NCBI GenBank assembly: GCA_963729895.1
Contig: CAVSQB010000011.1
Coordinates: forward strand, 27,441-91,440
Reading direction: 5' to 3'
Source: an uncultured Fibrobacterota bacterium
Lineage (GTDB): Bacteria; Fibrobacterota; Chitinivibrionia; Chitinivibrionales; FEN-1185
Length of the DNA: 64,000 bases
Shown here: piece after piece, positions 5,281-56,774 of the stretch
Numbering within the stretch: the stretch's first letter is position 1
Layout of the letters: each line of letters opens with the position of its first letter
Translations under genes and position numbers: made by a program
The notes under the pieces: model-generated
Database searches by the model: none
Seen by the model: the letters and a program-made list of their open reading frames with translations, nothing else
Told to the model about the DNA's origin: nothing

Positions 5281-5440
5281 CGTGGGTGCCCCACAGCAAG
5301 GGTTAGATTCTCGCAACCCCTCCAACTTTGGGGTCACCCGGCGCTGCTATCCAGATGTATTTGACTTGTATCTAGAAATTGGATTCTCGCAAATAAACTC
5401 GTTCGGGGCCACCCGGCTCAGCCATCCAAACGCATTTGAA
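5281..5440 (+). repeat. R1 repeat family: leader motif plus two tandem units
   Basis: cgtgggtgcccc leader at 5281, also present at 56591. Unit 1 (5306-5364): gattctcgc..ggggtcacccggcgctgctatccagatgtatttga. Unit 2 (5381-5440): ggattctcgc..ggggccacccggctcagccatccaaacgcatttgaa. The same unit occurs at 13730-13790 and 30813-30873. Confidence 0.8.
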
Positions 5441-8715: not shown

Positions 8716-8801
8716 CGTCATTGAAGAAAATGGAGTTGCTATTGTGGATAGGCCGAAGGAAATTCAGGTCGATTTATGACCACAAATCAAGAAATGCATA
8801 T

Positions 8802-8824
8802 GGATAGCTGTGCCGGGTGCGCCC
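8802..8824 (-). repeat. R1 family core motif (reverse orientation)
   Basis: ggatagctgtgccgggtgcgccc is the reverse complement of gggcgcacccggcacagctatcc. It matches 30767-30789 and 56638-56660 apart from one base. Confidence 0.7.
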
Positions 8825-19313: not shown

Positions 19314-19430
19314 TTCCCTCGCTTCGGGCTCGGCCGTTGGGCCTTCGTTGCCGGACCGCCCTGATGCCTTTCGGCAGGGTCGGCCGGCAATGCGCTACAG
19401 CGCACCCTGCGGTCCTGCCTAACGCGAAAG
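19314..19430 (+). repeat. R2 GC-rich 3-prime-flank element, copy 1 (lacks the 5-prime hairpin module)
   Basis: Starts 37 nt after the stop of 17763-19277. Shares cttcgggctcggccg, gcct(t)cgttgccggaccgccc, gggtcggccggcaatgcgc and ccctgcggtcctgcct..gcgcgaaag with the copies at 28054 and 35213. Confidence 0.75.
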
Positions 19431-28220: not shown

Positions 28221-28578
28221 ACGGACCACGCCCCATATCCCTGATTCCCAGATAAGAAAGTGAAAGTGCGAGACGAGGCTCCAGGAGCATCGCGAGGGGT
28301 AAAACGACGGAGCAACCCACCTAACGACATGTTCCCAACCGCCTCTCACTATTCCGTGCAGTTCATCAATTCCGAAACAAAGACAAGCGCAACGGACCGG
28401 CCGTTGGGGATTCACACCTCTGACGACCGGGGAGCCGGCGACCTGCGGAAAGGACGTTCCCGAATGAATTTTGCCGCAGGTGACGGAGAAAAAATCTGGC
28501 GGGAAAACGCGGAAAAGGTATATTATGATTCAGGGATTTCTCACGTTTGTCACCAACCGGAATGAGGGGGTTTGTGGT

Positions 28579-29568
28579 ATGAAGAAGGCTCTTGTTTCAA
28601 GGGGTTTGGCCGTTGCGGCCCAGGTCGGCGTTCTGGCGCTTGGATTTGCGGCTGCGGCACAGGCCGATACGGTGCAGGTGAATATTAAATCGATCCTAAA
28701 TGGTCGTGCCGTTTCCACTTTTTCAAACGGAAAGATCTACACATGGACAATGGGAATTGATGGTGGTGGAACAGGTGACGGATACGTGACACATTCCGTT
28801 GCCGTCCATCTGAACTACACCGGACACACGCTGCCGGACAGCGCGCGGTATCCTGCCAACGCCAATCATCCGACCATGATTCTAAATTTTTCCAATTCAG
28901 ACAGTACCGGGCAACAAACTCATTATATTCTCGGTTTGGATTCAGTCACGTTTCCCGTTCCGCAGGGAAATTACTCGAACCTCTACTTTGCCATGACAAG
29001 TTCGGAGGGAGGTTCTACCTTCAATGTCGTATTGAATTATTCGGATGGCCCTGTTGCTTCAACCGTCAATTTGCCGGACTATGATCAGGGTCTCACCTCT
29101 GGTATTTTCTATGTTGACTCTGCCATGCAGAAGTGGAACAATCAGAACATCCCTGGTGACAACAATGGTCATGCCCTCAACGGCTTCGGCGTTACCGCGA
29201 ATCCGGCAAAGACACTTACGAGTGTTAAGCTTCTTAAGAAAACCAGCAATTACCTTGTCCTTTGGGGCGTCACCGGCGTCGGGACATTTTCGACAGCCGT
29301 GCAACAACCGGCAGCCGTTGGAAAATCAAGATTCCAAGCCGTACGCGCCATTACCAGTAGCGACGGAAAGATCCGGTTTGAAAACATCGCAGCCAATTCG
29401 GAGCTTGCCGTGGTCTCGCTTTCAGGCGCAAAGGCCGCGCACCTGGTTTGTGCGCAAGGCGGCAACTTGGTGTGGAATAACGGTAGAACCGTTCCGCCCG
29501 GCTTATACATCTGCGAAATCAGATCAGGCACGGAAAGCCAAAGGGTGCAGGTGATTGTCGGCAGGTAA
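28579..29568 (+). CDS. Secreted hypothetical protein with a beta-sandwich C-terminal tail
   Basis: Start moved to ATG 28579 (MKKALVSRGLAVAAQVGVLALGFAAAAQA signal peptide). No recognisable catalytic domain. Tail LAVVSLSGAKAAHL..PPGLYICEIRSG. Confidence 0.6.
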   Translation: MKKALVSRGLAVAAQVGVLALGFAAAAQADTVQVNIKSILNGRAVSTFSNGKIYTWTMGIDGGGTGDGYVTHSVAVHLNYTGHTLPDSARYPANANHPTMILNFSNSDSTGQQTHYILGLDSVTFPVPQGNYSNLYFAMTSSEGGSTFNVVLNYSDGPVASTVNLPDYDQGLTSGIFYVDSAMQKWNNQNIPGDNNGHALNGFGVTANPAKTLTSVKLLKKTSNYLVLWGVTGVGTFSTAVQQPAAVGKSRFQAVRAITSSDGKIRFENIAANSELAVVSLSGAKAAHLVCAQGGNLVWNNGRTVPPGLYICEIRSGTESQRVQVIVGR

Positions 29569-29650: not shown

Positions 29651-30307
29651 TCAGCGTGTCTTGAGCAGCTTAAAGGCATGCGACCACTCGTTGCGAAGAA
29701 GGCCGGGAATGCACCAGAGCATGCACAACGGCTCTATCGCCCTTGCCCCTTCCGCCATTCCCATGTCTTCCGCTTCAAATCCGAACGTTTCCACAATGCC
29801 GCTCACGTCTTTCTTTGCGTTGGCATCGTTGCCGCAAATAAACATCGACGGCTTTGTGCCGCCGAAATCGGGGTTCACCATGAATGCGTTGCCGATGGAA
29901 TTGAATGCCTTCACAAAATGCGCTTTCGGGAACTCCTTTTGTAATTGCTCCATGAGTGACCTGTCGAGCGATGTAAAGAACGCGATGACGCCGTTGACAG
30001 GAGACGCATCCGCGATCGGATTGGTAACGTCAATGACGGTCTTTCCGCTTATGTTTTCCGCTCCCGTCGCCTTCAGTGCCTCCAAAGCGGCCGAACCTTT
30101 CACCGCAAGCACCACGATCTGCGCCCACGCCGCGGTCTCGGGCAAACTTCCAAGCCGGCCTTTTCCGCCTGCCTGCTTCTTCCAATCGGCCAGTTTCTTC
30201 TGGTCTCGGCTTCCGAGCATAACCTCGCACCCGTGCTTTATGAATCCGTTTGCAAGTGTTTGCGCGACCGCGCCTGACCCCAGGATTCCAACTCGTTTCG
30301 CATCCAT
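29651..30307 (-). CDS. NAD(P)-binding oxidoreductase of the NADPH-dependent F420 reductase / ProC-like fold
   Basis: 218 aa. Rossmann motif VGILGSGAVAQTLANGF, VLAVKGSA, GKTVIDVTNP. Confidence 0.65.
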   Translation of the reverse strand: MDAKRVGILGSGAVAQTLANGFIKHGCEVMLGSRDQKKLADWKKQAGGKGRLGSLPETAAWAQIVVLAVKGSAALEALKATGAENISGKTVIDVTNPIADASPVNGVIAFFTSLDRSLMEQLQKEFPKAHFVKAFNSIGNAFMVNPDFGGTKPSMFICGNDANAKKDVSGIVETFGFEAEDMGMAEGARAIEPLCMLWCIPGLLRNEWSHAFKLLKTR

Positions 30308-30594
30308 CGGCTTCCCCTTTTTGCTCGTTAGTTACAATGAACGGCTCGTGCCGCGTTTGGGGGTAAAAAACGCAAAATCCGTGCCACCGGCGGACAGATC
30401 CTTTGGGCGGATTCGGTGCCGGATCGCCCCTATGCCTGCCGGCGGGCCACCAATATACAAACAGCCCTCTCGCAAGGCAAAGGCGCATCCATTCACCCGC
30501 GGTTTTCAGCAACTTCGCGTTTCCAACGTGTCTATCAACTGGAGATTCGCAGACACGCCACTCCTGTAGGATTGTATGCAGTGGTAGTCATGGT

Positions 30595-30618
30595 GCTTCG
30601 CTTCGCTCGCAATGACAC
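30595..30618 (+). repeat. R3 family solo arm (GTCATTGCGAG-type)
   Basis: gcttcgcttcgctcgcaatgacac closely matches the right arm at 37515-37540. No partner arm was found within 150 nt upstream. Confidence 0.65.
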
Positions 30619-30671
30619 ATAGTGTTTTCTATTGCGACCCTGCGGCGCCGTCGGTACAGCCGCTCTCCAAG

Positions 30672-30873
30672 GGTGCCCAAATCATCTTCTCTCCGTATTT
30701 TCTCCCTCTCCCGCTGGGAGAGGGCGGGGTGAGGTCTTCCTTTATTTTATTTCAAGGGTGGTGCCCGGGCGCACCCGGCACTGCTATCCAAAGGCATTCC
30801 TATTTTGTTTCTGGATTCTTGCCGCAACACCACCTATGGGGTCACCCGGCTCAGCCAACCAGAACGCATTTAA
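30672..30873 (+). repeat. R1 composite repeat, longest copy (leader + hairpin module + GGGCGCACCCGGCAC module + GGGTCACC unit)
   Basis: gggtgcccaaatcatcttctctccgtattttctccctctcccgctgggagagggcggggtgagg ... ggtgcccgggcgcacccggcactgctatccaaagg ... ggattcttgccgc..ggggtcacccggctcagccaaccagaacgcattt. Confidence 0.8.
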
Positions 30874-31025
30874 TTTCTTCTTCTTTCCTTTCCATCACCG
30901 CGCGCCCTGGTGCGGTACACGTGTCTCCAATGGATAAATTTGGGACAACCGGAGGCGATTGTTATATTATTAACCCAAGCCAATCACGTATAACAATATC
31001 CCCACCTTCCAAAAAGGAGCAGTGG

Positions 31026-33425
31026 ATGAAGTCAAAGGCTGTAAAGGTACTTGCCGCAGCACTCGTTGCAACAGGACTGGTGCTCATGGGCTGCGCGCCC
31101 TATGCTCAACTCAAGCCCAAACCAGAACTCTCCAATGTCGAGCAAGGGTATATTGAACTCAAGAACGACAAGAAGGATTTCGAGCTCAAGAAGCAGAAGA
31201 AATATGTGATCGCCTTCCCTGCGCCGCAGGAGGACAATTTCTACATCGTGATGAACGTTCCTGCAAAGAAGAAGATGAACAGCTTTCTCTCCAACACCTT
31301 TACGGACAAGAAGACCCCTGGCGAGAAGATAAAAGACGAAACCTTGTGGCCCGATTCGATCGGCGTGTACCCGATCAACACGAAATCCCCCGCGTTCTAC
31401 TGGTTTATGGAGACCGGCGGCGAGGATTTCGTGATGCACATGAGATACCGGTATGCGCCGCAGTGGCGCTTCAAATTCGAGACAAAGCACGCGGAATACA
31501 ACGCGACGCTTGTGCGAAATATTGTTGACAGAAGCGCATACAAGGGCATCGGCAGCACCACGCAGCTCGACGCGTTCAACTTCGGCGTTGCCATCGACAC
31601 GGTAAAGCGCCATGAGGCGGCGCTCGAAGCGGTATACAAGGAACTGCTTGCCATCGAAAGCATTTTCCCCGCGCGGATCGTGAATTCAACCGATCCGGCG
31701 TACCAGAATTACAGGAAACTGCGCTCCGCCCTCGAAGACGAGATGAATTTCCAGAAGGCATACCTCGCGACTCTCGATTTTTTCAACAAAGAAAAGGCCT
31801 CGCGGCAGAACCCGGCCGATTTCATGGCGCGCCTCGATGATTTCATCGGGTATTTCGGCCAGAAAAGCATGCTCGCGCCCAACGTGGTTTCCGAAAGCCA
31901 GCGCGTGCTCAAGAACAGGTTCGACGACGTCATGCCCTTTCTTGCCATGAGAATGTCGGGGAAGGAAGATGCGACGCCGTTCGACAGCGCGCTGTATTTC
32001 ACTCCCCATCTCGGAGGTCTCGTCACGCTGCACGAAAAAGCCGACATTGCCGTTCCGCAGGACCTTTCCCTGATGGTGAAGTATGTAGCCGATTTCGATG
32101 CCAGGGCGAAGACGACCGCAGCGCTCAAGGACACCATGGACCGCATCGGCAAATATGTCAAAGACGGGCCGCAAATGCCCGGCGACGAATTCTTCAAGGG
32201 TATTGTTGAGCGGCTCACGGCGGTCCAGAACGCGGTTCCTGCAAAGATCGACGAACAATACGGCAAGTTTGCGGGATACAAGTGCTCCCAGGCGCTTAAC
32301 GCCGAGACTGCAAAGCTCGGGGCCGACGTTTCCCAGCACCTGGCCGAATGCCGGCAGGCGGAAATGCTGGTGCAGCAGGTCAACATGCTCAAGCTCCAGG
32401 GCGATTACCGAAGCATGGTGGCCCTGCTTGCGCAGGCGAGGCAGCTCGGGTTCCTTATTGACAAATACCGCGACCTCGACAGGCTGTCGGTAGAGCAGCA
32501 AATGAAGACCATTAAAGGAGCGCTCTCGTCCGGCGCGTGGGGCCAGGCCGAGACGGGCCTGCGCACCCTGCACAACGACAACACCTTCCTGAATCCACCG
32601 GGGATCCTGCCGTTCAAACAGGCTGCGGTTCGCGAGCTGGAAGATTCCCTGTACACCGGCGTGGAGCGCCTCACGCGCGCACGCGTCAACAAGTTCTGCG
32701 AGGACAAGGTGGGCGTTTTGGAGAACGTGGATTCACTTTACTCCGACTCGGTGTTTCTCCCGGCCTACAACATCACGTTCTCGTCCGGATCGCAGAACCA
32801 CCTGCTCCAGAAAAAGGACGCGCTCGCCGCCGACCTTGCCAAGCTGAAAGACTACGATTTCCCGGCCAAGGCGATCAAGCTCTGTTACGAGCAGTTCCTC
32901 AAGAACCCCGACGACAACGGCGTGCTCAAGGCGAGGGCCGTGGTAACGCACGGCAACCATTACAAGGGCGACGACAAGGAGATCAAGATCCGTGTTGCGG
33001 AATGCAATCCGCAGTCGGCAAAGAGGATTTCGAAACCCAAGGAATACCGCCGCGTGTTCGCGCTGCCGATCACTGACAACCGCAAGGGCAAGAACAAGTA
33101 CTACATCCGCCTCAACGTGGATATCCCGACAGATGCGAATTTCCCCGTGTACGACGTGAATATCAAGCTGCCCAAGGAGATCGCGCAGAACGCGGCGGCG
33201 AGCCAGTGGTACGACGAGATTTCGCTCAACAAGAAATTGCTCAAGAACGAGGGACGGTTTTCCATCGCCGCCCCGACCGCCTCCAACGATTACGAATGCC
33301 AGATCACGCCGGTGCAGATGAACAAGGACCAGAACAACATTCTTGAGATCAACTTTACTTACCATGCGTTCAAGCCGTTCCTCGTGAGCGTGATGGTGCA
33401 GAAGCCGATCATCAAGAAGAATTGA
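31026..33425 (+). CDS. Large orphan lipoprotein (799 aa), first gene of the ABC locus
   Basis: RBS aaaaaggag, then ATG 31026. Lipobox LVLMGCAP. Lys/Asp-rich N-terminal third and a long helical middle. No domain I can recognise. The track ORF start at 30612 lies in repeat DNA. Confidence 0.7.
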   Translation: MKSKAVKVLAAALVATGLVLMGCAPYAQLKPKPELSNVEQGYIELKNDKKDFELKKQKKYVIAFPAPQEDNFYIVMNVPAKKKMNSFLSNTFTDKKTPGEKIKDETLWPDSIGVYPINTKSPAFYWFMETGGEDFVMHMRYRYAPQWRFKFETKHAEYNATLVRNIVDRSAYKGIGSTTQLDAFNFGVAIDTVKRHEAALEAVYKELLAIESIFPARIVNSTDPAYQNYRKLRSALEDEMNFQKAYLATLDFFNKEKASRQNPADFMARLDDFIGYFGQKSMLAPNVVSESQRVLKNRFDDVMPFLAMRMSGKEDATPFDSALYFTPHLGGLVTLHEKADIAVPQDLSLMVKYVADFDARAKTTAALKDTMDRIGKYVKDGPQMPGDEFFKGIVERLTAVQNAVPAKIDEQYGKFAGYKCSQALNAETAKLGADVSQHLAECRQAEMLVQQVNMLKLQGDYRSMVALLAQARQLGFLIDKYRDLDRLSVEQQMKTIKGALSSGAWGQAETGLRTLHNDNTFLNPPGILPFKQAAVRELEDSLYTGVERLTRARVNKFCEDKVGVLENVDSLYSDSVFLPAYNITFSSGSQNHLLQKKDALAADLAKLKDYDFPAKAIKLCYEQFLKNPDDNGVLKARAVVTHGNHYKGDDKEIKIRVAECNPQSAKRISKPKEYRRVFALPITDNRKGKNKYYIRLNVDIPTDANFPVYDVNIKLPKEIAQNAAASQWYDEISLNKKLLKNEGRFSIAAPTASNDYECQITPVQMNKDQNNILEINFTYHAFKPFLVSVMVQKPIIKKN

Positions 33426-33463
33426 TGGCGAAGGTTTCTTTTCTTATTTAGAAAGGGTATCCC

Positions 33464-35197
33464 ATGAAAAAAGCGATCATCATCGTAGGCGCCGTTCTCG
33501 TGTGCGCGGCCGCGGCGGCCGTGTACTGGTTCGTGTTCCGCAAGGACCTGAGCGACAAGATCATCATCCCCTACATTGCGCACCAGAAGCCGCGTATAGA
33601 TCCCCACGTGCCGAGCCCCGTTCCCATCGCCGACAAACTTGACGAAGTGGTGTTTGACGGCCTGTTCAACGTGTCCGCCAACCCGAGCGGCATCACCTAC
33701 GAAGACGGGCTGGGCGAGTACATGGGCATCGACAAGAACAATGTGGTGAGCGTTCGTCTCAAGCAGGGAAAGAAGTGGCACTCAAGCTGGGCGGTTACCA
33801 GGGACAAAGAAAAAGTCACCATTACGCCCAGGCAGGATGTGCTGTTTTCGGCGCAGGACCTCAAGTTCACTTTGCGGCGCATCCAGAAGCTCGGCAGCCT
33901 CTCGCCCGATTACATCCTCGTCTCCCAGGCCGTGCCGGATTTCGATTTCTCCGGCCCGGACAACGATAACGAGATCAAGTTCCAGTTCAAGGGCGACCGG
34001 CTCTGGGGGGAAGGCGATATCAAGGAGGTGCTGTCCTTCAAGATCCTGCCCGCCAATTCCGAAATGGACGCTCCGGCCTACAACATCGGAACAGGCCCGT
34101 ACCTGCTCACCGGTGACTACGAAGACGTGATTTACTTCCACAAGATGCCCGACGGGACCGCGCCCATCACGAACTTCATACTCAAGCCGTTCATCGACAA
34201 CAGCACCTATACCACCGAACTCAAGAACAGGAATATCAACACGCTGTTGTCGACTCCGTTCGGCGCCATCTCGCCGATCCTGGGCGACAGCACGCAATTT
34301 TTTCACAAGTCAAGCATTGCGACGTGTTTCTTCGCCATCTTCTACAATGTCGAACGGCTCAACCATGATCAGCGGCTCGCGCTTCGCAAGCTTGTCAACA
34401 ACGAAATGGTGATGGACCGATTCTTCAAGATCAATTCTCAGCAGCAGCGCCACATCGCCAATTACAAAGGGGAGGGCGACAATTACGCCGAATACCTGAA
34501 CAACAGCGTGTTCCCCACCACGTCCTACTACGTGGAGGAAAAGGTCGTGACCCCGCTTGCCGCCAAAGATGGCCCCGATCCTTCGGTGCTGCCCGATACG
34601 GTCCGCATCCAGACCTGCCTCAACTACGATTTTCGTGAGGAATTGTCCGACCTTGTGGAAATCCTCAACGACCCGGGCATGTTCCACGGCAAAATCAAGG
34701 TGAGCGCGGTCAGCAACGATGAAATAAGAAAGAGCAATTACGACGCGGTGCTGGTCCCGATATCCGGGTACCGGAGCAACTTTCTGTTCGACCTGTATCC
34801 CATTTTCCTGCGCGAGCCCGATTTCGAGGCGTACCGGATCAACCTGCAGACGCTGGTTGACAGCAAGGGAAAAGAAACGGCGGACCCGAAATGCTTCACG
34901 GCGAACAAAAACTTTTTCCACCTAGATCTGAACGGGTCGTCGTCCGAGCAGGAAGACGTCAAAAAGCTGCTCGACGACATCTACAGCTTCATGTCGACGC
35001 GTGAGATCGGCGACAAACAGGCCTATTCGCAGATGATAGACCAACTGGACCAGAAGCTTGCGCTCGGCTCGTGGTTGTTTTCCCTGCCGTCGCTTGCGTA
35101 CTTCTCAACCCAGTTCGACGACAAGACGATAGATTTGTACGGAACGGCATCGCAGTTGTCAACTGTCAAGAAATGGCAGGAGCGGGCGAAGAAATAA
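33464..35197 (+). CDS. ABC transporter substrate-binding protein, family 5 (Opp/Dpp/Nik type), N-terminally membrane-anchored
   Basis: N-terminal helix MKKAIIIVGAVLVCAAAAAVYWFVF. Family-5-like blocks IDPHV..DKLDEVVFDGLF, VVSVRLKQGKKWHS, FSAQDLKFTLRRIQK. Confidence 0.6.
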   Translation: MKKAIIIVGAVLVCAAAAAVYWFVFRKDLSDKIIIPYIAHQKPRIDPHVPSPVPIADKLDEVVFDGLFNVSANPSGITYEDGLGEYMGIDKNNVVSVRLKQGKKWHSSWAVTRDKEKVTITPRQDVLFSAQDLKFTLRRIQKLGSLSPDYILVSQAVPDFDFSGPDNDNEIKFQFKGDRLWGEGDIKEVLSFKILPANSEMDAPAYNIGTGPYLLTGDYEDVIYFHKMPDGTAPITNFILKPFIDNSTYTTELKNRNINTLLSTPFGAISPILGDSTQFFHKSSIATCFFAIFYNVERLNHDQRLALRKLVNNEMVMDRFFKINSQQQRHIANYKGEGDNYAEYLNNSVFPTTSYYVEEKVVTPLAAKDGPDPSVLPDTVRIQTCLNYDFREELSDLVEILNDPGMFHGKIKVSAVSNDEIRKSNYDAVLVPISGYRSNFLFDLYPIFLREPDFEAYRINLQTLVDSKGKETADPKCFTANKNFFHLDLNGSSSEQEDVKKLLDDIYSFMSTREIGDKQAYSQMIDQLDQKLALGSWLFSLPSLAYFSTQFDDKTIDLYGTASQLSTVKKWQERAKK

Positions 35198-35212
35198 AGA
35201 GGATACAAAATC

Positions 35213-35354
35213 TGGGGCGCCCCGCCGAAAGACGGCGGCGGCCCTCCTTACAGGCTCGGCTGTCGCCTCGTTGCCGGACCGCCCCCAATGCCTAACGGCG
35301 GGGTCGGCCGGTGACGCGCTCTGGCGCGCCTTCCAGTCCGGCCTGGCGCGAAAG
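35213..35354 (+). repeat. R2 GC-rich 3-prime-flank element, copy 3, inside the ABC operon
   Basis: Starts 16 nt after the SBP stop. tggggcgccccgccgaaagacggcgg hairpin module, gcctcgttgccggaccgccc, gggtcggccggtgacgcgc, ggcctggcgcgaaag. Confidence 0.75.
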
Positions 35355-35421
35355 AAGAACAACAATAGCGCTCTCTGCCCTTAGTGGTGCTCACCTGCGA
35401 AGACGGAAGAAAAAAGTACCA

Positions 35422-36303
35422 ATGGCATTTCGATCAACAATTTTACTTCTTCTTTATATCTGTTCCGCCTCATATTCCCAGAAAACCTCAGACTTCATTA
35501 TCCTTGCCCAGCCCCGCGACTACACCATTTTCAACCAATACGAGCAGCCGATTACCGAGGCCGAGAAAAAACTGTTTGCGCCGTTTGCTCCTTTGCAAAT
35601 AAAGAACGATAACGAGGTCCTGGGCGACCAGATAACGCATGCGCTCAGGGCGGTTTTCGAGGGAGAGACCTGGTTTCTCGAGAAGGACGAGAACGGCAAT
35701 CTGCTGGGCGACAAAGGGAAGCAGAACCGGCCGGTCTACAAGAAATGCCTTGTGCTCAACGACACGGTGCAAATCGTAAATGGCCATGCGGTCTGTTTCT
35801 CGGAGAAATTTCCCCCTTCCGGACAGGCCGGATTTCTTGAAAAAGGGGATTTCGTTGAGCGCCTATTTTCCTACGGCGGCTATTGCTGCGTCAAGAGAAT
35901 CGGTGCGCAGGTTCGCTACGGATGGAGTTCATTTGCACAGAAGGCGGCCTGGAAGCGCGTGGAACAGGTTGCGGAGAAGCTGGAGACGGGGCTCACAAGT
36001 TTCCTTTCGGAAAGGATCGTTCAGAGGTTCGCGGCCGCAAACAGGGCCTACAAGGAGTATTTCGACCATTTCAACAAATTGACGAAGCAGGAAAGAAGTG
36101 TCCCCTTCTGGCGTTGCGAGACCAGGGGAAACGAGGTGTATTGTTCGCTGAATGCCCCGTATAATGGGTCGTCCGATCTCGATGAAAGCACGCACTGTCT
36201 TGTGCGCGACATCGAGAACACGCTCATTGGAAAACACTACGTCGTTGTTCCAGGCAAGGGCGCTATGACGATACGGCCCGAAAGCGGAGGCGGCGGGCAA
36301 TGA
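35422..36303 (+). CDS. Exported Cys-rich hypothetical protein
   Basis: Start moved to ATG 35422 (signal peptide MAFRSTILLLLYICSASYSQ); the upstream part of the track ORF is R2 repeat DNA. Eight Cys residues. Its stop overlaps the next start (ATGA, 36300-36303). Confidence 0.6.
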   Translation: MAFRSTILLLLYICSASYSQKTSDFIILAQPRDYTIFNQYEQPITEAEKKLFAPFAPLQIKNDNEVLGDQITHALRAVFEGETWFLEKDENGNLLGDKGKQNRPVYKKCLVLNDTVQIVNGHAVCFSEKFPPSGQAGFLEKGDFVERLFSYGGYCCVKRIGAQVRYGWSSFAQKAAWKRVEQVAEKLETGLTSFLSERIVQRFAAANRAYKEYFDHFNKLTKQERSVPFWRCETRGNEVYCSLNAPYNGSSDLDESTHCLVRDIENTLIGKHYVVVPGKGAMTIRPESGGGGQ

Positions 36304-37364
36304 AACGGAAACTGGTTGAACACGGCATGAGCATTGCCTTTGTGACTGCGGTATTGCTGTGCATCCTGTGTATGGTGCGGGCCGGGACGCAGGCGGGCAT
36401 AGACAAAGAGAATGCTGCGTCGCGCCAGTACGGCGATCTTGGATTCGTTGATGTAAACGACCCGTTTCACAAGGCCCTGCTCAAAGACGCGGTGAACATG
36501 TTTTATCCCGGCCAGTTCGAAAAAAACAACGCCGCCGTCGAATCGATCCTTGCGAACAGGGAAGACGAGTTCAGCAGGAAACTCCGGAAATCGAACGTAG
36601 AGGAGAGGCTTTCCTGGGGGAAATGCGGCCAGTTGCTGGGTATGTTCGTCAAGTTCGTTCTTGTGTATGCCGTTGTGATGCTTCTAACGTATTATGGCGT
36701 GCAGACGCTTGCCGTATTCCGCTTTGCCCGCAAGAAACTGCGCGTGCGGGCGTCAAAGACGACGCTTCCCGGGGTACTATTGCTCATTGTCAAAACAGTC
36801 GGGAAGACTGCCGCCTATTTTGTTTTGTTCTCGCCGGCCTACGTGATAGCCTATTCGATCCGCACCGAATTCAATACCGACACGGTGATCTTCATGGCGC
36901 TTCTCGGCGTGATATCCAACGGCCTGCTCGTCACCTATGCGAACAAGTTCTATGCCTTTCTTGTGGCCGAAAGCAGGAAAGGGTATGTGGAAACCGCTGT
37001 TGTCAAGAACCTTGCGGCGTCCTATTCGCCGCGCGCAAGCGACGGAATACCGTACGGGTCGATGTTCCGGCCCATCAAGCATTTCAAGGGACACGTGTTC
37101 GAGCACATTTTTTCCAACGCACAACACCAGTACCTGTCCACCATCAAGGAACAGGCGTCGTTCCTCATCACCGGTCTCATCATCATCGAGATGGCGCTTA
37201 ACATCCACGGCCATTTGAGCTACGAAATGCTGCGCCAGATGCTGTACAAGAACTGGGACATCGTCATCGTCATCATCCTGGGAATATTTTATACCGTGAA
37301 GGGAACGGAAATTGTTGTTGATTATCTGGGGTTTAGGGCGGAGAAGAGGATTGAAAACAAGTAG
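36300..37364 (+). CDS. Divergent OppB/DppB-like ABC permease
   Basis: Multiple TM helices. KGYVETAVVKNL corresponds to the DY(V/I)RTARAKGL block of family-5 importer permeases. C-terminal FLITGLIIIEMALNIHG resembles ..GAVVVEtvFswPG. Confidence 0.55.
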   Translation: MKRKLVEHGMSIAFVTAVLLCILCMVRAGTQAGIDKENAASRQYGDLGFVDVNDPFHKALLKDAVNMFYPGQFEKNNAAVESILANREDEFSRKLRKSNVEERLSWGKCGQLLGMFVKFVLVYAVVMLLTYYGVQTLAVFRFARKKLRVRASKTTLPGVLLLIVKTVGKTAAYFVLFSPAYVIAYSIRTEFNTDTVIFMALLGVISNGLLVTYANKFYAFLVAESRKGYVETAVVKNLAASYSPRASDGIPYGSMFRPIKHFKGHVFEHIFSNAQHQYLSTIKEQASFLITGLIIIEMALNIHGHLSYEMLRQMLYKNWDIVIVIILGIFYTVKGTEIVVDYLGFRAEKRIENK

Positions 37365-37429
37365 GATGCAAGAGCCAGCCGCCCAGGACGTGGCTGAGAT
37401 TGTTTATTAATGTGATGGAAAAAAACAAC

Positions 37430-37540
37430 GTCATTGCGAGCGCAGAGAAGGAATCTCATTTATGACCGCATTGTGTGTTCGCACGAATCCAATGAAACAA
37501 CGATTGCCTAATGGGATCGCTTCGTTTCACTCGCAATGAC
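37430..37540. repeat. R3 inverted-repeat (MITE-like) element between the two permease genes
   Basis: Left arm gtcattgcgagcgcagagaaggaatc (37430-37455). Right arm gatcgcttcgtttcactcgcaatgac (37515-37540), whose reverse complement is gtcattgcgagtgaaacgaagcgatc. About 20 of 26 positions are complementary, with a 59-nt spacer. Confidence 0.75.
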
Positions 37541-37592
37541 ACCAGGTATTTATTGGTTTGGTAATCAGAAAGTCTGAATCACAGGAAGCAAA

Positions 37593-38444
37593 ATGTCTGG
37601 ATTACTTCGCAACAAAGACTCCCGCTGGCTCGGCATCTGGCTCCTGGGCATCCTTGCCGTGGGAGTATGGGACAATCTGTTCCTCAACAAACCGGCCCTG
37701 CGCCAGGTAGCTGCCGGGTTTGTCAATACGTTCAGCATTGCTTTACTTGTCGTCATCTTTACACTGCTCCTGGCATGGGGTGTCACGCTTGCGCTCCATT
37801 TTCTTGATGCGGGAAAGAACAAGACGCCGTACCTTTTGCTCACGTTCCTGTTGAACCTGATACGTTCCATTCCGCAGATCGTGGGCATTCTTTTCGGGTA
37901 TGTAGCGGTAAGCATGCTGGTGCAGGGCGAGTTCCTGAGAAGCGAGGCGGTGATCTTTCCGCTGCTCGCGTTCTGTATCAGCCTGTTCGTGTTCATAGAA
38001 TTCGTCGACCTTATGCGGGAGCGTATCGCCCATTACCAAAAGCTTGATTTTTACAACGCGATGCGCGTATGCGGCATTCCCGAGGGACGGGTGATCAATT
38101 TCGATATCTTGTGGAAGAACAGCCGGATCCACATACTCAATAAGCTGATCTCCGTATTCGGCGCCGCAATCTTCCTGCAGTGCAGCGTGGATTTCATCAT
38201 TTCCGTGGGCCTCTCCACGGACGTGAACTCGGTGACCCTGCCGGCAACCATGGGCAGCTTGCTCGCCAAAATCGACAGCAAACAGGACATCCTTGCCATC
38301 GGGTACGCGCTGACGCATCCCGGATACGTCAGCAACCTGTTCTTCGAGCACCTGCTCGGACTCACGGTGGCGTTCCTCATCGTCTTTTCCCTTATGTCTA
38401 TATACCACATCGCGAACGGATACGCGGAGAGGCACCGGCTATGA
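37593..38444 (+). CDS. OppC/DppC-like ABC permease
   Basis: 283 aa, 6 TM-like segments. EAA-region analogue YNAMRVCGIPEGRVINFDILWKNSRIHILNKLISVFGAAIFLQCSVDFI. Confidence 0.6.
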   Translation: MSGLLRNKDSRWLGIWLLGILAVGVWDNLFLNKPALRQVAAGFVNTFSIALLVVIFTLLLAWGVTLALHFLDAGKNKTPYLLLTFLLNLIRSIPQIVGILFGYVAVSMLVQGEFLRSEAVIFPLLAFCISLFVFIEFVDLMRERIAHYQKLDFYNAMRVCGIPEGRVINFDILWKNSRIHILNKLISVFGAAIFLQCSVDFIISVGLSTDVNSVTLPATMGSLLAKIDSKQDILAIGYALTHPGYVSNLFFEHLLGLTVAFLIVFSLMSIYHIANGYAERHRL

Positions 38445-39958
38445 CCGCTGCAACGTATTCGGTACATATCCGCTCCGGAACGCGGACCATCGTGTCCACG
38501 GAAAACTACCAAGTATTCCAGGATGAGATTACCTTTCTTTTCGGAGAATCCGGCATCGGGAAATCGATGATCTCCAAGGCCGTATACGGCCTGCTCGATC
38601 TGGATGAACTTGACGTGACCGTCAATGCCCGGCCCTATGCTTCCCACCTCGACGGGGAACCGGCGCGGAAGATGAGGGCAAACAGTTTCTTCGTATTTCA
38701 GGAGCCGTCGTCGCACCTCAATTCTCTCTTGAAAATTTCCGACCAGCTTCGCGAAGGCAGCCTGCGGCTGTCCACGGACGAAGAGGCTATTTTGGGCCGC
38801 TTGTGGCAGGACTCCGATGCCCAGGCGATTAGGCGGGTACTCGACGTGTTTCCCAAACCGTACCGTCCGAGCGGCGGTGAAAAACAGCGGGTGCTGCTCG
38901 CCATGGCATTCAAGAAAATCGACGTGCTCATGAGGACCGTTGGAGCCGGCGCCCCAAGCTTCTTCGTGTTCGACGAGCCGACGGGCAGCCTCGACAACAG
39001 GTATCGCAACCTGTTTCTCGAGTTGCTTTTCGAGAAGTTCCGCCAACGGCCGTTCACCGTCATGATCATCACGCACGACTATTCGGTGATAAGCGAACTC
39101 TACGCAAAATACGGCCGGCTTCTTCCAAGGATCCACCTCAAGGAATTGCGCCGGGGGGAAGGCACGCGCGTGGAGGTCGTGGACTTTTCCGCGCAGGAAT
39201 ATTTGAGCTGGCTTTCGGCCGGGATACAGAGGCCGCCCGCGTCTGGCGGGCCGGTTCTCGAAGTGGGTGCCCGCTTTTCGGTGTTCGGCAGGCAGTTGTG
39301 CCTGTACAAAGACCCGGCGCATGCGCAACCCGCGGACCTGGTGATCCGTAAGGGCGAAATGGCGTATGTGAAGGCGCCGAGCGGCGTGGGCAAGACCACG
39401 CTTGCCAAGGCGATCATGGGACTCTATCCCGCGCAGCGTTTGACCATGACGCTCTGCGGCAAGCGAATAACGGAAAAGACCCGGACAAAGGTTTGGGACG
39501 CGGAAATCTGGGGCAAGAAGGCCGGCATGGTCTTCCAGCACGCCGACGAGTCGCTCAACCTTGCTGCATCGGTCAAGGAGACGTTCGCTGGGCTGCCCCT
39601 TGCGGAAAAACTGACTCCCGCACGGCTTGCCTCGGCGCTCGCCGAATTGTTCGAAAACGCGGTGACCGAATCGTTTCTCCGCAAGAAGGTGGCCATGCTG
39701 AGCGGCGGTCAGAAACAGCGGTTGAATCTGCTGAGGACAATTGTGCTCGGCACCGATCTGCTTATTCTTGACGAACCGCTTAACGGGCTCGATTTCCTGA
39801 GTGTCAAGAAAGTGCTGGCGATCCTCGACGCGAAACGGGGCCAGGGTTCGGCCCTCCTCATGATATCCCACAACGAGGAGATCTTCGACCATTTTGTCGA
39901 CAAAGAGAATGTGTATTATCTCGCGGAAATTGCGGATGAGAACCGTTCGGCTGAATAG
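38441..39958 (+). CDS. Fused tandem ABC ATPase (two nucleotide-binding domains in one polypeptide)
   Basis: ATG 38441 overlaps the permease stop (ATGA). NBD1: GESGIGKSM, PSGGEKQRV, FFVFDEPTGSLD, ITHD. NBD2: APSGVGKTT, LSGGQKQRL, LLILDEPLNGLD, ISHN. Confidence 0.85.
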   Translation: MTAATYSVHIRSGTRTIVSTENYQVFQDEITFLFGESGIGKSMISKAVYGLLDLDELDVTVNARPYASHLDGEPARKMRANSFFVFQEPSSHLNSLLKISDQLREGSLRLSTDEEAILGRLWQDSDAQAIRRVLDVFPKPYRPSGGEKQRVLLAMAFKKIDVLMRTVGAGAPSFFVFDEPTGSLDNRYRNLFLELLFEKFRQRPFTVMIITHDYSVISELYAKYGRLLPRIHLKELRRGEGTRVEVVDFSAQEYLSWLSAGIQRPPASGGPVLEVGARFSVFGRQLCLYKDPAHAQPADLVIRKGEMAYVKAPSGVGKTTLAKAIMGLYPAQRLTMTLCGKRITEKTRTKVWDAEIWGKKAGMVFQHADESLNLAASVKETFAGLPLAEKLTPARLASALAELFENAVTESFLRKKVAMLSGGQKQRLNLLRTIVLGTDLLILDEPLNGLDFLSVKKVLAILDAKRGQGSALLMISHNEEIFDHFVDKENVYYLAEIADENRSAE

Positions 39959-40035
39959 GAGCTCCGGGAGCCGGACGGGGAGGCGCGGTATCAAGATCGG
40001 AAGCCGGCAATCTCTGCATCAGGCGGCGCGGTTTC

Positions 40036-40572
40036 CTACGGGTAAAAATTGAAAACCGCCCACACGCTGCCCGAGGCCGCGGTGTAGAATCCCACAGAAA
40101 CCTTGGTGTATGCGGTATTGGTCATATTGATGTAGTGGCCATGCTGCGAGTAAGGCTCGCCCGGACCTTCGTCCCACATGGCGGTAAGGCAGCCGTCAAC
40201 AATCGAACCGGTTGATCCGTAACCCGGACATTCGTTTTGTGCCATCTCGCCGCACCGTCCGAACGCTCCATGCGCGACGCCGGTGATACAATCGCTTCTT
40301 GCTTCATAGTCGGAACACGTGTCTTTTGCCGGCAGGAAGGTGAGCGCCGGGAGGCCTACGGTGGCCCGAAGGGAATTGATTTTGTCAACACATTCAATTC
40401 GGGCGTTGGCGTAGGAGTCGACCCACGGGGAAGCGGATGGCTGAGATGACGATCCGCAGGAGAACGCAAGCGCCGCACAAACGGTTGCAAGAGCGGTGGT
40501 GAGAGGCGATGGCAGAAGGGTAGGGGTGCAATTGTCCCCGCCCACACCGAGTTGTCGAAGCGAGCCTGCCAT
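40036..40572 (-). CDS. CAP/SCP (PR-1-like) domain lipoprotein
   Basis: Lipobox LAFSCGSS. CAP-like blocks INSLRATVGLPAL, AHGAFG..EMAQNE, MWDEGPGE..HGHYINM. Start set at ATG 40572, 2 nt downstream of the upstream gene's stop. Confidence 0.6.
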   Translation of the reverse strand: MAGSLRQLGVGGDNCTPTLLPSPLTTALATVCAALAFSCGSSSQPSASPWVDSYANARIECVDKINSLRATVGLPALTFLPAKDTCSDYEARSDCITGVAHGAFGRCGEMAQNECPGYGSTGSIVDGCLTAMWDEGPGEPYSQHGHYINMTNTAYTKVSVGFYTAASGSVWAVFNFYP

Positions 40573-56590: not shown

Positions 56591-56660
56591 CGTGGGTGCC
56601 CCCAGCAGATGTTTGAACTTTTTCACGGGAGGTGCCTGGGCGCACCCGGCACTGCTATCC
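56591..56660 (+). repeat. R1 family copy (leader + GGGCGCACCCGGCAC module)
   Basis: cgtgggtgcccccagcag ... ggtgcctgggcgcacccggcactgctatccagagg. Compare with 5281-5300 and 30759-30793. Confidence 0.75.
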
Positions 56661-56774
56661 AGAGGATTATTCAAGGCAACGTCCAGGGTATTTTGCCTTT
56701 ATCAAAAGTAAATACTATTTTCGTATATTCTGAAATTAAGAAGATCGTATTTTGAATCTTAATAGGAGGCGAAT

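What the first reader, a model, noticed from the sequence alone, without database searches (positions are those of the whole stretch)
31026..39958. Six-gene Opp/Dpp-like ABC locus led by an 800-aa orphan lipoprotein, with an extra Cys-rich exported protein coupled to the permease
Same-strand genes run in this order: 799-aa lipoprotein with no recognisable domain; family-5 substrate-binding protein retaining an N-terminal membrane helix; 294-aa exported protein with 8 Cys whose stop overlaps the next start (ATGA); a very divergent OppB-like permease; an OppC-like permease; and a single polypeptide carrying both ATPase domains (ATGA-coupled to the permease). Canonical Opp/Dpp systems have one SBP, two permeases and two separate ATPases. 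The two extra exported proteins, the fused ATPase and the divergence of permease 1 suggest an uncharacterised variant importer, perhaps with a surface capture component. Two different repeat elements sit inside the locus, at 35213-35354 and 37430-37540.
Basis: partly seen in the sequence, partly recalled or inferred. Interest (0 to 1): 0.55.

Follow-up and report, generated by a model that had tools for sequence, protein, structure and literature searches.

The report
Opp-type ABC importer with two novel partners
This is a real six-gene operon, conserved across Fibrobacterota, Calditrichota and Ignavibacteria, that encodes a highly diverged oligopeptide-type ABC importer plus two uncharacterised periplasmic partner proteins; its cargo is unknown.

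Summary
All six genes are present at the stated coordinates, and the cluster is a real conserved unit.

**Synteny.** In 35 of 48 species genomes with enough DNA, the order lipoprotein (LP), binding protein (SBP), small exported protein (CYS), permease 1 (P1), permease 2 (P2), fused ATPase is kept. No other neighbour recurs. The cluster can split into LP–SBP and CYS–P1–P2–ATPase.

**Transporter core.** Profile comparisons place it in the Opp/Dpp/Yej class. The SBP is family 5, P1 is OppB-type and P2 is OppC-type. The ATPase is closest to the fused OppD/DppD of M. tuberculosis and to YejF/GsiA, so the fusion is not unusual.

**What is unusual.**
- Every SBP has an N-terminal membrane helix.
- The SBP is the slowest-evolving component (mean identity 62%, against 53% for the ATPase). 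It forms an isolated island in sequence space.
- Two partners have no Pfam or PDB sequence relative. One is a 799-aa lipoprotein modelled as β-sandwich, long helical region, β-sandwich. The other is a 293-aa secreted protein with weak structural matches to SH3b-containing cell-wall proteins.

**Corrections to the finding.** The cysteines are not conserved. The two repeats are incidental, and one is absent from a close relative.

**Verdict.** A new variant of a known kind. The substrate is unknown and the mechanism is inferred.

The parts
31026..33425 (+). LP: 799-aa lipoprotein (signal peptide, lipobox LVLMG-C23). AlphaFold2 model: N-terminal beta-sandwich (~40-145), long all-helical region (~146-660), C-terminal beta-sandwich (~665-791). 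The C-terminal third is the most conserved part.
   Evidence: Cys23 invariant; pLDDT 89.3; no whole-chain PDB match; the short local matches are to beta-sandwich domains of CBM6/35, C-CPE, ColH CBD and PliG; no PDB or Pfam relative.
33464..35197 (+). SBP: 577-aa family-5 (cluster C, OppA/DppA-type) substrate-binding protein with an N-terminal transmembrane helix. It is the slowest-evolving gene of the cluster.
   Evidence: SBP_bac_5, 22 bits; 15/26 orthologs hit SBP_bac_5, best 6.8e-11; hhalign against E. coli OppA/YejA/GsiB/NikA/SapA: prob 96%, E 1e-9; helix conserved; only 52 hits among 1.84e9 representatives; nearly all 41-81% identical, one borderline hit 30%; mean identity 62%.
35422..36303 (+). 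CYS: 293-aa secreted protein. Signal peptide, beta-rich part (~22-180), long helix (193-221), small alpha/beta C-terminal domain (230-286). It is the fastest-evolving member and its cysteines are not conserved. Its stop overlaps the P1 start (ATGA).
   Evidence: besides the start Met, invariant only N207, P228, W230, S256; pLDDT 83.9; Foldseek: YrvJ, TagH C-terminus, NlpC1/2, DPP-VI, AtlE repeats; E 4e-4 to 0.1, TM ~0.2; overlaps P1 in 14/39 loci; precedes P1 in 53/58 loci.
36300..37364 (+). P1: 354-aa OppB/DppB-type permease. It has an EAA-loop motif ESRKGYVETAVVKNL and an enlarged, conserved segment (~30-110) between the first two hydrophobic helices, presumably periplasmic.
   Evidence: hhalign against the OppB-type alignment: prob 92%, E 5e-7, C-terminal 126 columns; against OppC-type: 0.8%; BPD_transp_1 in 9/23 orthologs, best 9.3e-8.
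37593..38444 (+). P2: 283-aa OppC/DppC-type permease. EAA-loop motif DFYNAMRVCGIPEGRVINFDILWKNS.
   Evidence: hhalign against OppC-type: prob 70%, E 4e-5, 249 columns; against OppB-type: 7%; weak match to Mtb DppB 8wd9_B; BPD_transp_1 in 8/23 orthologs, best 2.9e-8.
38441..39958 (+). ATP: 505-aa single polypeptide with two ABC nucleotide-binding domains, both with intact motifs. Walker A: GESGIGKS / APSGVGKT. Signature: PSGGEKQR / LSGGQKQR. Walker B: FVFDEP / LILDEP. H-loop: ITHD / ISHN. ATGA-coupled to P2.
   Evidence: about 25% identity, nearly end to end, to YejF and GsiA; best PDB matches are the fused Mtb OppD 8j5q_D and DppD 8wd9_D; overlaps P2 in 34/34 loci.
35213..35354 (.). GC-rich structured spacer between SBP and CYS. 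It lies at the junction where the cluster splits in other genomes, and it probably separates two transcription units. Not part of the machine.
   Evidence: largely absent from close relative L082; no Rfam match.
37430..37540 (.). 111-nt imperfect palindrome (GTCATTGCGAGCG ... CACTCGCAATGAC) in the P1-P2 spacer. A half copy lies at 30595-30618. Incidental small repeat element.
   Evidence: absent from L082; window gap 228 nt against a median of -4 nt.

Best explanation
The locus encodes a strongly diverged member of the peptide/opine/nickel (Opp/Dpp/Yej, 'PepT') class of binding-protein-dependent ABC importers. This variant has acquired two dedicated periplasmic partner proteins. It is inherited as one module in Fibrobacterota (Chitinivibrionia), Calditrichota, Ignavibacteria-type Bacteroidota and Raymondbacteria.

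**Proposed mechanism.**
1. The family-5 SBP is held at the inner membrane by its N-terminal helix. It binds a peptide-like ligand and docks on the OppB-type/OppC-type heterodimer (P1/P2).
2. The fused two-site ATPase powers import.
3. The 799-aa lipoprotein, always encoded immediately upstream of the SBP, works with the SBP. It could act as a periplasmic strut or hand-over factor whose conserved C-terminal beta-sandwich contacts the SBP.
4. The 293-aa secreted protein, usually encoded directly upstream of P1 and often translationally coupled to it, works with the permease.

**Why the ligand is probably invariant.** The SBP evolves more slowly than the ATPase and has no intermediate relatives. 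I therefore infer that the ligand is an unchanging molecule, possibly envelope-derived, and not a varied set of nutritional peptides. I also infer that the SBP has several fixed protein contacts.

**Shown:** gene content, family assignments, synteny, modularity, conservation ranking, domain architecture of the models.

**Inferred:** direction of transport, physical contacts, nature of the ligand.
For: **Family assignment.**
- hhalign: SBP against E. coli OppA-type proteins, 96%, E 1e-9.
- hhalign: P1 against OppB-type 92%, against OppC-type 0.8%.
- hhalign: P2 against OppC-type 70%, against OppB-type 7%.
- Pfam SBP_bac_5 and BPD_transp_1 hits in 15/26, 9/23 and 8/23 orthologs.
- The ATPase aligns nearly end to end with YejF and GsiA. 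Its best PDB matches are the fused Mtb OppD and DppD.
- Both ATP sites have intact motifs (read from the sequence).

**Synteny.**
- 70 species genomes carry the LP, and the SBP follows it wherever enough downstream DNA is held (64 loci). 35 of the 48 loci with at least 6.8 kb downstream have the complete ordered cluster.
- In 80 independent P1-anchored metagenome loci: P2 62/62, ATPase 43/43, CYS 53/58, SBP 38/44, LP 28/33.
- Only these six genes recur across loci.
- Packing is tight. Median gaps are 36, 74, 5, -4 and -4 nt, and P2/ATPase overlap in 34/34 loci.

**Modularity.** LP-SBP-only loci and CYS-P1-P2-ATPase-only loci both exist.

**Conservation.** Over the same 36 clusters the ranking is SBP 62% > P2 57% > ATPase 53% > P1 48% > LP 47% > CYS 28%. 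An exhaustive phmmer search with the SBP finds no ordinary OppA/DppA.

**Models.** LP pLDDT 89, CYS pLDDT 84.
Against: - There is no experimental or transcript evidence.
- No ligand-binding residues could be mapped. hhalign aligns only the N-terminal half of the SBP.
- Permease and SBP assignments rest on weak scores for the window's own proteins.
- Physical contacts LP-SBP and CYS-P1 are inferred only from gene adjacency and coupling.
- CYS is absent next to P1 in 5/58 loci, for example L114 where radA lies upstream, so it may not be obligatory.
- In 9 of 48 genomes LP-SBP stands alone within 10 kb. I could not check whether the transporter half lies elsewhere in those genomes.
- An SBP that outranks the ATPase in conservation is atypical for a plain importer. 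It fits a structural or regulatory role equally well.
Confidence: 0.55

Rival explanations
1. This is a cell-wall-peptide uptake system, a more specific version of the importer model. It would import peptidoglycan stem peptides or similar envelope fragments, as MppA-OppBCDF does for murein tripeptide in E. coli. The small secreted protein would use SH3b-like barrels to hold on to peptidoglycan. The rod-like lipoprotein would bridge the wall or outer membrane to the membrane-anchored SBP.
For: - Foldseek hits of the CYS model are dominated by cell-wall-associated proteins, several of which carry SH3b-type wall-binding domains by my knowledge: YrvJ, TagH C-terminus, NlpC1/2, gamma-D-Glu-DAP peptidase BT_1314, AtlE repeats, SlpA LTA-binding domain, CBD of phage P35.
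- The extreme, cross-phylum conservation of the SBP fits an invariant ligand such as a stem peptide.
- OppBCDF is annotated as the murein tripeptide transporter in E. coli.
Against: - The Foldseek matches are weak (E 4e-4 to 0.1, TM 0.15-0.21). SH3-like barrels are a very common fold.
- No Pfam SH3 family hits in 24 orthologs.
- No peptidoglycan hydrolase, amidase or recycling gene recurs next to the cluster.
- Residues that would bind a peptide in the SBP could not be aligned.
Confidence: 0.15
2. This is not a transporter but an ABC-powered periplasmic machine. The Opp-type core would use ATP hydrolysis to move or regulate its fixed periplasmic partners (anchored SBP-like subunit, lipoprotein rod, SH3-like protein). 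The logic would be that of FtsEX-EnvC or other mechanotransmitting ABC systems, serving an envelope function specific to these lineages.
For: - The SBP is permanently tethered and is the slowest-evolving subunit, as expected for a structural subunit with many contacts.
- Two dedicated periplasmic partners are co-inherited.
- The LP's central ~500 residues are modelled as long helices. Its weak whole-chain Foldseek hits include large helical assemblies such as BIRC6, Munc13-4 and M-Sec.
- The family is an isolated island with no intermediates to nutrient SBPs.
Against: - All characterised mechanotransmitting ABC systems use a different transmembrane fold (my knowledge).
- The core here keeps the EAA loops, the OppB/OppC pairing and an SBP, which are hallmarks of type I import.
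- No enzyme or effector domain is found in LP or CYS.
Confidence: 0.15
3. This is an exporter built on an Opp-like scaffold, as has been proposed for E. coli SapBCDF, which RefSeq annotates as a putrescine exporter.
For: RefSeq annotates SapBCDF, an Opp-class system, as a putrescine ABC exporter. Direction therefore cannot be read from the family alone.
Against: - A conserved, dedicated SBP encoded in the cluster is the signature of import.
- Nothing in the neighbourhood suggests a synthesised product to be exported.
Confidence: 0.05
4. The genes are neighbours without a joint function. LP-SBP and CYS-P1-P2-ATPase would be independent units that merely tend to lie side by side.
For: - The cluster splits at the SBP|CYS junction in about a fifth of genomes.
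- This junction has the longest and most variable spacer. In the window it holds a 224-nt structured spacer.
Against: - Adjacency in the same order and strand is kept from Fibrobacterota to Ignavibacteria, while every flanking gene changes.
- An SBP without its own permeases and permeases without an SBP would both be non-functional. No second SBP or permease pair recurs nearby.
Confidence: 0.05

Closest known systems
E. coli YejABEF and GsiABCD; M. tuberculosis OppABCD (PDB 8j5q) and DppABCD (PDB 8wd9). These are Opp/Dpp-class ABC importers with a fused two-domain ATPase.
   Same: - One family-5 SBP, an OppB-type permease, an OppC-type permease, and one polypeptide with two nucleotide-binding domains.
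- The SBP-B-C-ATPase gene order matches yejABEF.
- The ATPase aligns nearly end to end with YejF and GsiA at about 25% identity. Its best PDB matches are Mtb OppD and DppD.
   Different: - The SBP has an N-terminal membrane helix (YejA, OppA and GsiB are soluble periplasmic proteins; my knowledge).
- The permeases and SBP are so diverged that the window's own sequences miss or fail the Pfam thresholds.
- The ATPase lacks the C-terminal oligopeptide-transporter extension (no PF08352 hit).
- Two extra conserved genes, LP and CYS, have no counterpart in these operons.
- The SBP is the most conserved subunit, not the least.
MppA-OppBCDF murein tripeptide uptake in E. coli
   Same: An Opp-type core used for an invariant cell-wall-derived peptide. 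This would explain the strong conservation of the SBP and a periplasmic partner that looks like a wall-binding protein.
   Different: - No sequence relationship to MppA was shown.
- MppA is a soluble alternative SBP without accessory lipoprotein or SH3-like partner (my knowledge).
- The link to the cell wall here rests only on weak fold matches.
ABC systems with fixed periplasmic partners (FtsEX-EnvC type)
   Same: A membrane ABC core is co-inherited with elongated, largely helical periplasmic or lipoprotein partners. The resemblance is one of logic only.
   Different: - The transmembrane fold and family are different (my knowledge).
- Here the core has EAA-loop permeases and an SBP.
- No hydrolase partner was found.
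Large Opp-associated surface lipoproteins of mycoplasmas, for example the ~100-kDa OppA of Mycoplasma hominis (recalled from memory, not tested here)
   Same: An unusually large lipoprotein without obvious SBP_bac_5 similarity is encoded in an opp operon.
   Different: - In mycoplasmas the lipoprotein is itself the binding protein.
- Here a separate bona fide family-5 SBP is present next to the lipoprotein.
- No sequence comparison was run.

Membership tests
Opp/Dpp/Yej-class (peptide/opine/nickel, TC 3.A.1.5) binding-protein-dependent ABC importer | Family-5 (cluster C) substrate-binding protein | tested here: met
   The window protein scores 22 bits, below the Pfam cut-off. However, 15/26 orthologs hit SBP_bac_5 (best 6.8e-11), and hhalign against the E. 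coli OppA/YejA/GsiB/NikA/SapA alignment gives prob 96%, E 1e-9 over 263 columns. A profile search against PDB sequences found nothing.
Opp/Dpp/Yej-class (peptide/opine/nickel, TC 3.A.1.5) binding-protein-dependent ABC importer | Heterodimer of one OppB-type and one OppC-type permease, each with an EAA loop | tested here: met
   P1 against B-type 92%, against C-type 0.8%. P2 against C-type 70%, against B-type 7%. BPD_transp_1 hits in 9/23 and 8/23 orthologs. EAA-like motifs are visible in the alignments. For P1 only the C-terminal ~126 columns align.
Opp/Dpp/Yej-class (peptide/opine/nickel, TC 3.A.1.5) binding-protein-dependent ABC importer | Two nucleotide-binding domains with intact Walker A, Walker B, signature and H-loop motifs | tested here: met
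   Two PF00005 domains. The motifs were read from the sequence. The best NCBIfam hits are NikD/NikE and YejF.
Opp/Dpp/Yej-class (peptide/opine/nickel, TC 3.A.1.5) binding-protein-dependent ABC importer | C-terminal oligopeptide-transporter extension on the ATPase domains (typical of OppD/F and DppD/F; absent from NikD/E, so typical but not universal) | tested here: not met
   PF08352 is not among the 23 Pfam hits at E <= 0.1. The protein is 505 aa, about 2 x 250 aa.
Opp/Dpp/Yej-class (peptide/opine/nickel, TC 3.A.1.5) binding-protein-dependent ABC importer | SBP-dependent, ATP-driven uptake of a peptide-like ligand | not testable with these tools
   Needs binding and transport assays.
Fused-ATPase subgroup (YejF, GsiA, Mtb OppD/DppD) | Both nucleotide-binding domains in one polypeptide | tested here: met
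   The fusion and its overlap with the P2 stop are kept in 34/34 loci.
Bacterial lipoprotein (for LP) | Signal peptide ending in a lipobox with an invariant Cys | tested here: met
   LVLMG-C23. Cys23 is invariant in 32 orthologs. Which membrane it sits in, and whether it is surface-exposed, was not determined.
SH3b cell-wall-binding domain proteins (for CYS) | Recognisable SH3b domain by sequence profile or by a convincing structural superposition | tested here: inconclusive
   Foldseek's top hits are dominated by cell-wall-associated proteins, several with SH3b domains by my knowledge. They are weak, though: best E 4e-4, TM 0.15-0.21. No Pfam hit of any kind, including the SH3 families, in 24 orthologs. 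I do not file it as a member.
Carbohydrate-binding-module-like or C-CPE-like beta-sandwich (for the LP terminal domains) | Structural match with family-level significance | tested here: inconclusive

The most novel reading that the evidence does not exclude
The six proteins form one fixed envelope complex specific to Fibrobacterota, Calditrichota and Ignavibacteria. In this complex an Opp-type ABC engine no longer serves nutrition. The membrane-anchored SBP-like subunit, the ~800-aa lipoprotein rod and the SH3-like protein would act as permanent subunits. Together they would carry out an envelope task, such as retrieval of wall or outer-membrane-derived material or mechanical signalling across the periplasm. 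This would be a new functional class built on the type I importer scaffold.
Probability: 0.2. Interest if true: 0.75.

Novelty: new variant of a known kind. Interest (0 to 1): 0.5.

Why it matters
Opp/Dpp-type systems are among the best-studied bacterial importers. They are normally described as SBP + 2 permeases + 2 ATPase domains, with the SBP as the fast-evolving specificity element.

This clade-wide variant differs in three ways:
- The SBP is membrane-tethered.
- The SBP evolves more slowly than the ATPase.
- Two further proteins with no known relatives are co-inherited with the transporter.

Four of the six genes are labelled 'hypothetical protein' in public records, so the system is invisible to routine annotation.

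If LP and CYS prove to be physical subunits, this would define a new accessory architecture for type I ABC importers. It would also assign a role to two orphan protein families. Both families are widespread in uncultured sediment, peat and digester bacteria of the Fibrobacterota-Bacteroidota (FCB) group of phyla.

Tried and rejected
- **Sequence searches on the window's own P1, P2 and SBP.** Pfam, NCBIfam and PDB sequence profiles gave nothing or sub-threshold hits. The assignments needed ortholog alignments, hhalign against E. coli paralog alignments built from NC_000913.3, and Pfam scans of orthologs.
- **Homolog searches for CYS.** The word-indexed search returned only 17-18 sequences, even with a 24-sequence profile. 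Its AlphaFold alignment was therefore shallow.
- **RNA and regulatory signals.** Rfam found no RNA family in 30000-40500. The sigma-70 promoter and terminator scan was at background level.
- **Conserved neighbours.** I looked for flanking genes that might hint at function and found none.
- **Literature.** Two searches found no description of this system.
- **Ideas rejected.** 'Cys-rich' is not a family trait. The fused ATPase is not a novelty. The repeats are not functional parts of the locus.

Full report
**Observation**

| Gene | Coordinates | Size | Notes |
|---|---|---|---|
| LP | 31026-33425 | 799 aa | AAGGAG upstream; lipobox LVLMG-C23 |
| SBP | 33464-35197 | 577 aa | hydrophobic N-terminal helix |
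| CYS | 35422-36303 | 293 aa | signal peptide; 8 Cys, one in the signal peptide |
| P1 | 36300-37364 | 354 aa | ATGA overlap with CYS |
| P2 | 37593-38444 | 283 aa | |
| ATPase | 38441-39958 | 505 aa | ATGA overlap with P2; two ABC_tran domains |

Pfam and NCBIfam give nothing for LP, CYS, P1 and P2 of the window. The SBP gets only a sub-threshold SBP_bac_5 hit of 22 bits. The window is a metagenome contig (ERZ25039529 contig_7876). Its closest named relatives are Chitinivibrionales and Chitinispirillaceae MAGs of the Fibrobacterota.

**Is it a unit?**

The lipoprotein family has about 147 near-full-length relatives, 49-97% identical among the 120 listed.

A scan of one genome per GTDB species found the lipoprotein in 70 species. 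These are labelled Fibrobacterota (Chitinivibrionia), Calditrichota, Ignavibacteriota/Melioribacteraceae, a few 'Bacteroidota' MAGs and Candidatus Raymondbacteria. Stray labels such as Bifidobacteriales, Caldisericaceae and Deltaproteobacteria are probably binning errors.

The SBP gene follows LP in every locus that holds enough downstream DNA to show it (64 of the 70). Of the 48 loci with at least 6.8 kb downstream, 35 carry SBP-CYS-P1-P2-ATPase in the same order and strand.

An independent sample of 80 metagenome loci anchored on P1 gave these counts:

| Gene | Loci with the gene / loci with room for it |
|---|---|
| P2 | 62/62 |
| ATPase | 43/43 |
| CYS | 53/58 |
| SBP | 38/44 |
| LP | 28/33 |

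Clustering all flanking ORFs showed that only these six genes recur. The next most frequent neighbour occurs in 8 closely related loci.

Spacing is operon-like. Median gaps are 36, 74, 5, -4 and -4 nt. P2/ATPase overlap in 34/34 loci, P1/P2 in 21/39 and CYS/P1 in 14/39 (start codons were chosen heuristically).

The cluster is modular.
- Nine genomes have LP-SBP followed by unrelated genes.
- Several contigs have CYS-P1-P2-ATPase without LP-SBP upstream: L090, L094, L101 and L103.
- At least one has P1-P2-ATPase directly after radA, without CYS (L114).

LP therefore travels with the SBP, and CYS travels with the permeases.

**What the core is**

I built ortholog alignments from the loci (A2 for P1, A3 for P2, A6 for SBP). 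I also built reference alignments of E. coli K-12 paralogs taken from NC_000913.3 (Opp, Yej, Dpp, Gsi, Nik, Sap).

Profile-profile comparison gave these results:

| Query | Against | Probability | E-value | Columns |
|---|---|---|---|---|
| P1 | OppB-type | 92% | 5e-7 | 126 (EAA loop and last helices only) |
| P1 | OppC-type | 0.8% | | |
| P2 | OppC-type | 70% | 4e-5 | 249 |
| P2 | OppB-type | 7% | | |
| SBP | OppA-type | 96% | 1e-9 | 263 |

Pfam scans of the orthologs agree. SBP_bac_5 hits 15/26 SBPs (best 6.8e-11). BPD_transp_1 hits 9/23 P1 and 8/23 P2 sequences (about 1e-7 to 3e-8).

The ATPase aligns nearly end to end with the fused YejF (26% identity, 6e-30) and GsiA (24% identity, 5e-28). 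Its best PDB sequence matches are the fused OppD (Rv1281c, 8j5q) and DppD (8wd9) of M. tuberculosis. Both of its ATP sites have intact motifs (read).

The core is therefore an Opp/Dpp/Yej-class type I importer, and a fused ATPase is already known in that class. It lacks the C-terminal extension typical of OppD/F (no PF08352 hit).

**What is unusual in the core**

- *Membrane helix on the SBP.* All 26 aligned SBPs keep an N-terminal helix of about 22 hydrophobic residues ending in aromatic residues. No conserved cleavage or lipobox motif follows it.
- *Inverted conservation ranking.* Over the same 36 complete clusters the mean pairwise identities are SBP 62%, P2 57%, ATPase 53%, P1 48%, LP 47% and CYS 28%. 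Between Fibrobacterota and the other lineages the values are 56, 51, 47, 41, 38 and 23%. In ordinary ABC importers the ATPase is the most conserved part and the SBP the least (established knowledge).
- *Isolation in sequence space.* An exhaustive phmmer search with the SBP against 1.84 billion cluster representatives returned only 52 hits. Nearly all are 41-81% identical family members or fragments, with one borderline hit at 30%. No ordinary OppA or DppA appeared.

**The two extra proteins**

*LP.* No member has a credible Pfam hit (0 of 32; one stray Vps53_N hit at 7e-4), and there is no PDB sequence relative. The AlphaFold2 model is confident (pLDDT 89.3; pTM 0.52, so domain packing is uncertain). 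It shows a beta-sandwich (~40-145), about 500 residues of long helices, and a second beta-sandwich (~665-791). Foldseek against the PDB finds no whole-chain match (TM ~0.1). Some weak whole-chain hits are to large helical assemblies (BIRC6, Munc13-4, M-Sec). The short local matches (about 100-160 aligned columns) are all to beta-sandwich domains: CBM6/35, the C-terminal domain of C. perfringens enterotoxin, the ColH collagen-binding domain and PliG. The N-terminal ~65 residues and the C-terminal third, right to the last residues, are the most conserved parts.

*CYS.* No Pfam or PDB sequence relative exists in 24 orthologs. Its cysteines are not conserved. Besides the start Met, the invariant positions are N207, P228, W230 and S256. 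The model (pLDDT 83.9, shallow alignment) shows a beta-rich part, a 29-residue helix and a small alpha/beta domain. Foldseek's best hits are cell-wall-associated proteins, several of which carry SH3b-type wall-binding domains by my knowledge: YrvJ, TagH C-terminus, NlpC1/2, BT_1314, AtlE repeats, an LTA-binding S-layer domain and a phage cell-wall-binding domain. They are weak, with E from 4e-4 to 0.1 and TM 0.15-0.21. I treat this as a lead, not as family membership.

**Mechanism**

The best-supported reading is a binding-protein-dependent importer whose SBP is tethered to the inner membrane. LP would be a partner of the SBP and CYS a partner of the permease. The ligand would be invariant across lineages. 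Direction of transport, contacts and ligand are all inferred.

A more specific version is uptake of cell-wall peptides, as with MppA-Opp. It draws on the weak structural matches of CYS to wall-binding proteins and on the conservation of the SBP, but it has no genomic support from neighbours.

A more radical reading is an ABC-driven periplasmic machine that is not a transporter. It fits the inverted conservation and the fixed partners. It conflicts with the preserved importer hallmarks.

Export, as annotated for SapBCDF, and mere co-location are unlikely.

**The repeats**

The 111-nt palindrome at 37430-37540 is missing from the same spacer in a close relative that shares the same flanking genes (L082). 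That fits an insertion in the window's lineage; a deletion in L082 was not excluded. The window's 228-nt P1-P2 gap is an outlier against a median of -4 nt.

The GC-rich spacer at 35213-35354 is also largely absent from that relative. It sits at the junction where the cluster splits in other genomes. No Rfam family matches either element.

**Public status**

LP, SBP, CYS and P1 are 'hypothetical protein' in NCBI and JGI records. P2 is 'ABC transporter permease subunit'. The ATPase is labelled 'ABC-type glutathione transport system ATPase component'. Two literature searches found no description of the system.

**Verdict**

It is right that this is an uncharacterised variant with two co-inherited orphan partners. 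It is wrong to treat the fused ATPase, the cysteines and the repeats as significant.

The locus is a new variant of a known kind and moderately interesting. The most notable features are the membrane-anchored, ultra-conserved and sequence-isolated SBP, and the two orphan partner families.

Noticed in passing
window 37430-37540 (half copy at 30595-30618): A 111-nt imperfect palindrome, GTCATTGCGAGCG...CACTCGCAATGAC. It looks like a small REP/MITE-like element lying inside the operon between P1 and P2. It is absent from the same spacer in close relative L082. Its RNA fold z-score is -2.6.
   Followed up: partly
window 35213-35354; related motifs at 19345-19369 and 30419-30437: A GC-rich, strongly folding spacer (MFE -79 kcal/mol, z = -2.4). 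Part of it (35268-35284) recurs exactly at 19345-19361. By eye it resembles the motif CCGGAYCGCCCC.ATGCCT, which a pattern search found at 19351 and 30419. This may be a second family of small intergenic repeats in this genome.
   Followed up: partly
window 30308-31025: An unusually long (718 nt) non-coding stretch lies upstream of the lipoprotein gene. It contains several short repeats that recur at 56621-56661, 8801-8824 and 5405-5437. Because the frame stays open, the mechanical ORF list extends the lipoprotein to 937 aa (30612-33425).
   Followed up: no
window 28471-29568 (+): A 365-aa secreted protein with no Pfam family. Its C-terminus gives a sub-threshold match to the T9SS type A sorting domain (TIGR04183, 16.9 bits against a cut-off of 23). 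This suggests the organism has a type IX secretion system.
   Followed up: partly
window 38051-39994 (-): A 647-aa antisense ORF spans the whole ATPase gene. I take it to be an artefact of GC-rich codon usage, not a gene.
   Followed up: no
L006 14586-16841; L055 14435-15091 and 19475-21649: In some relatives, unrelated genes are inserted inside the cluster. L006 has a 751-aa secreted protein on the opposite strand between SBP and CYS. L055 has ORFs between SBP and CYS and between P2 and the ATPase. The cluster therefore tolerates interruption at these junctions.
   Followed up: no
L081 (E. coli K-12 sapABCDF): RefSeq now annotates the Opp-like SapBCDF as a putrescine ABC exporter, while SapA remains a 'putative periplasmic binding protein'. 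Transport direction in this class therefore cannot be assumed from homology.
   Followed up: no
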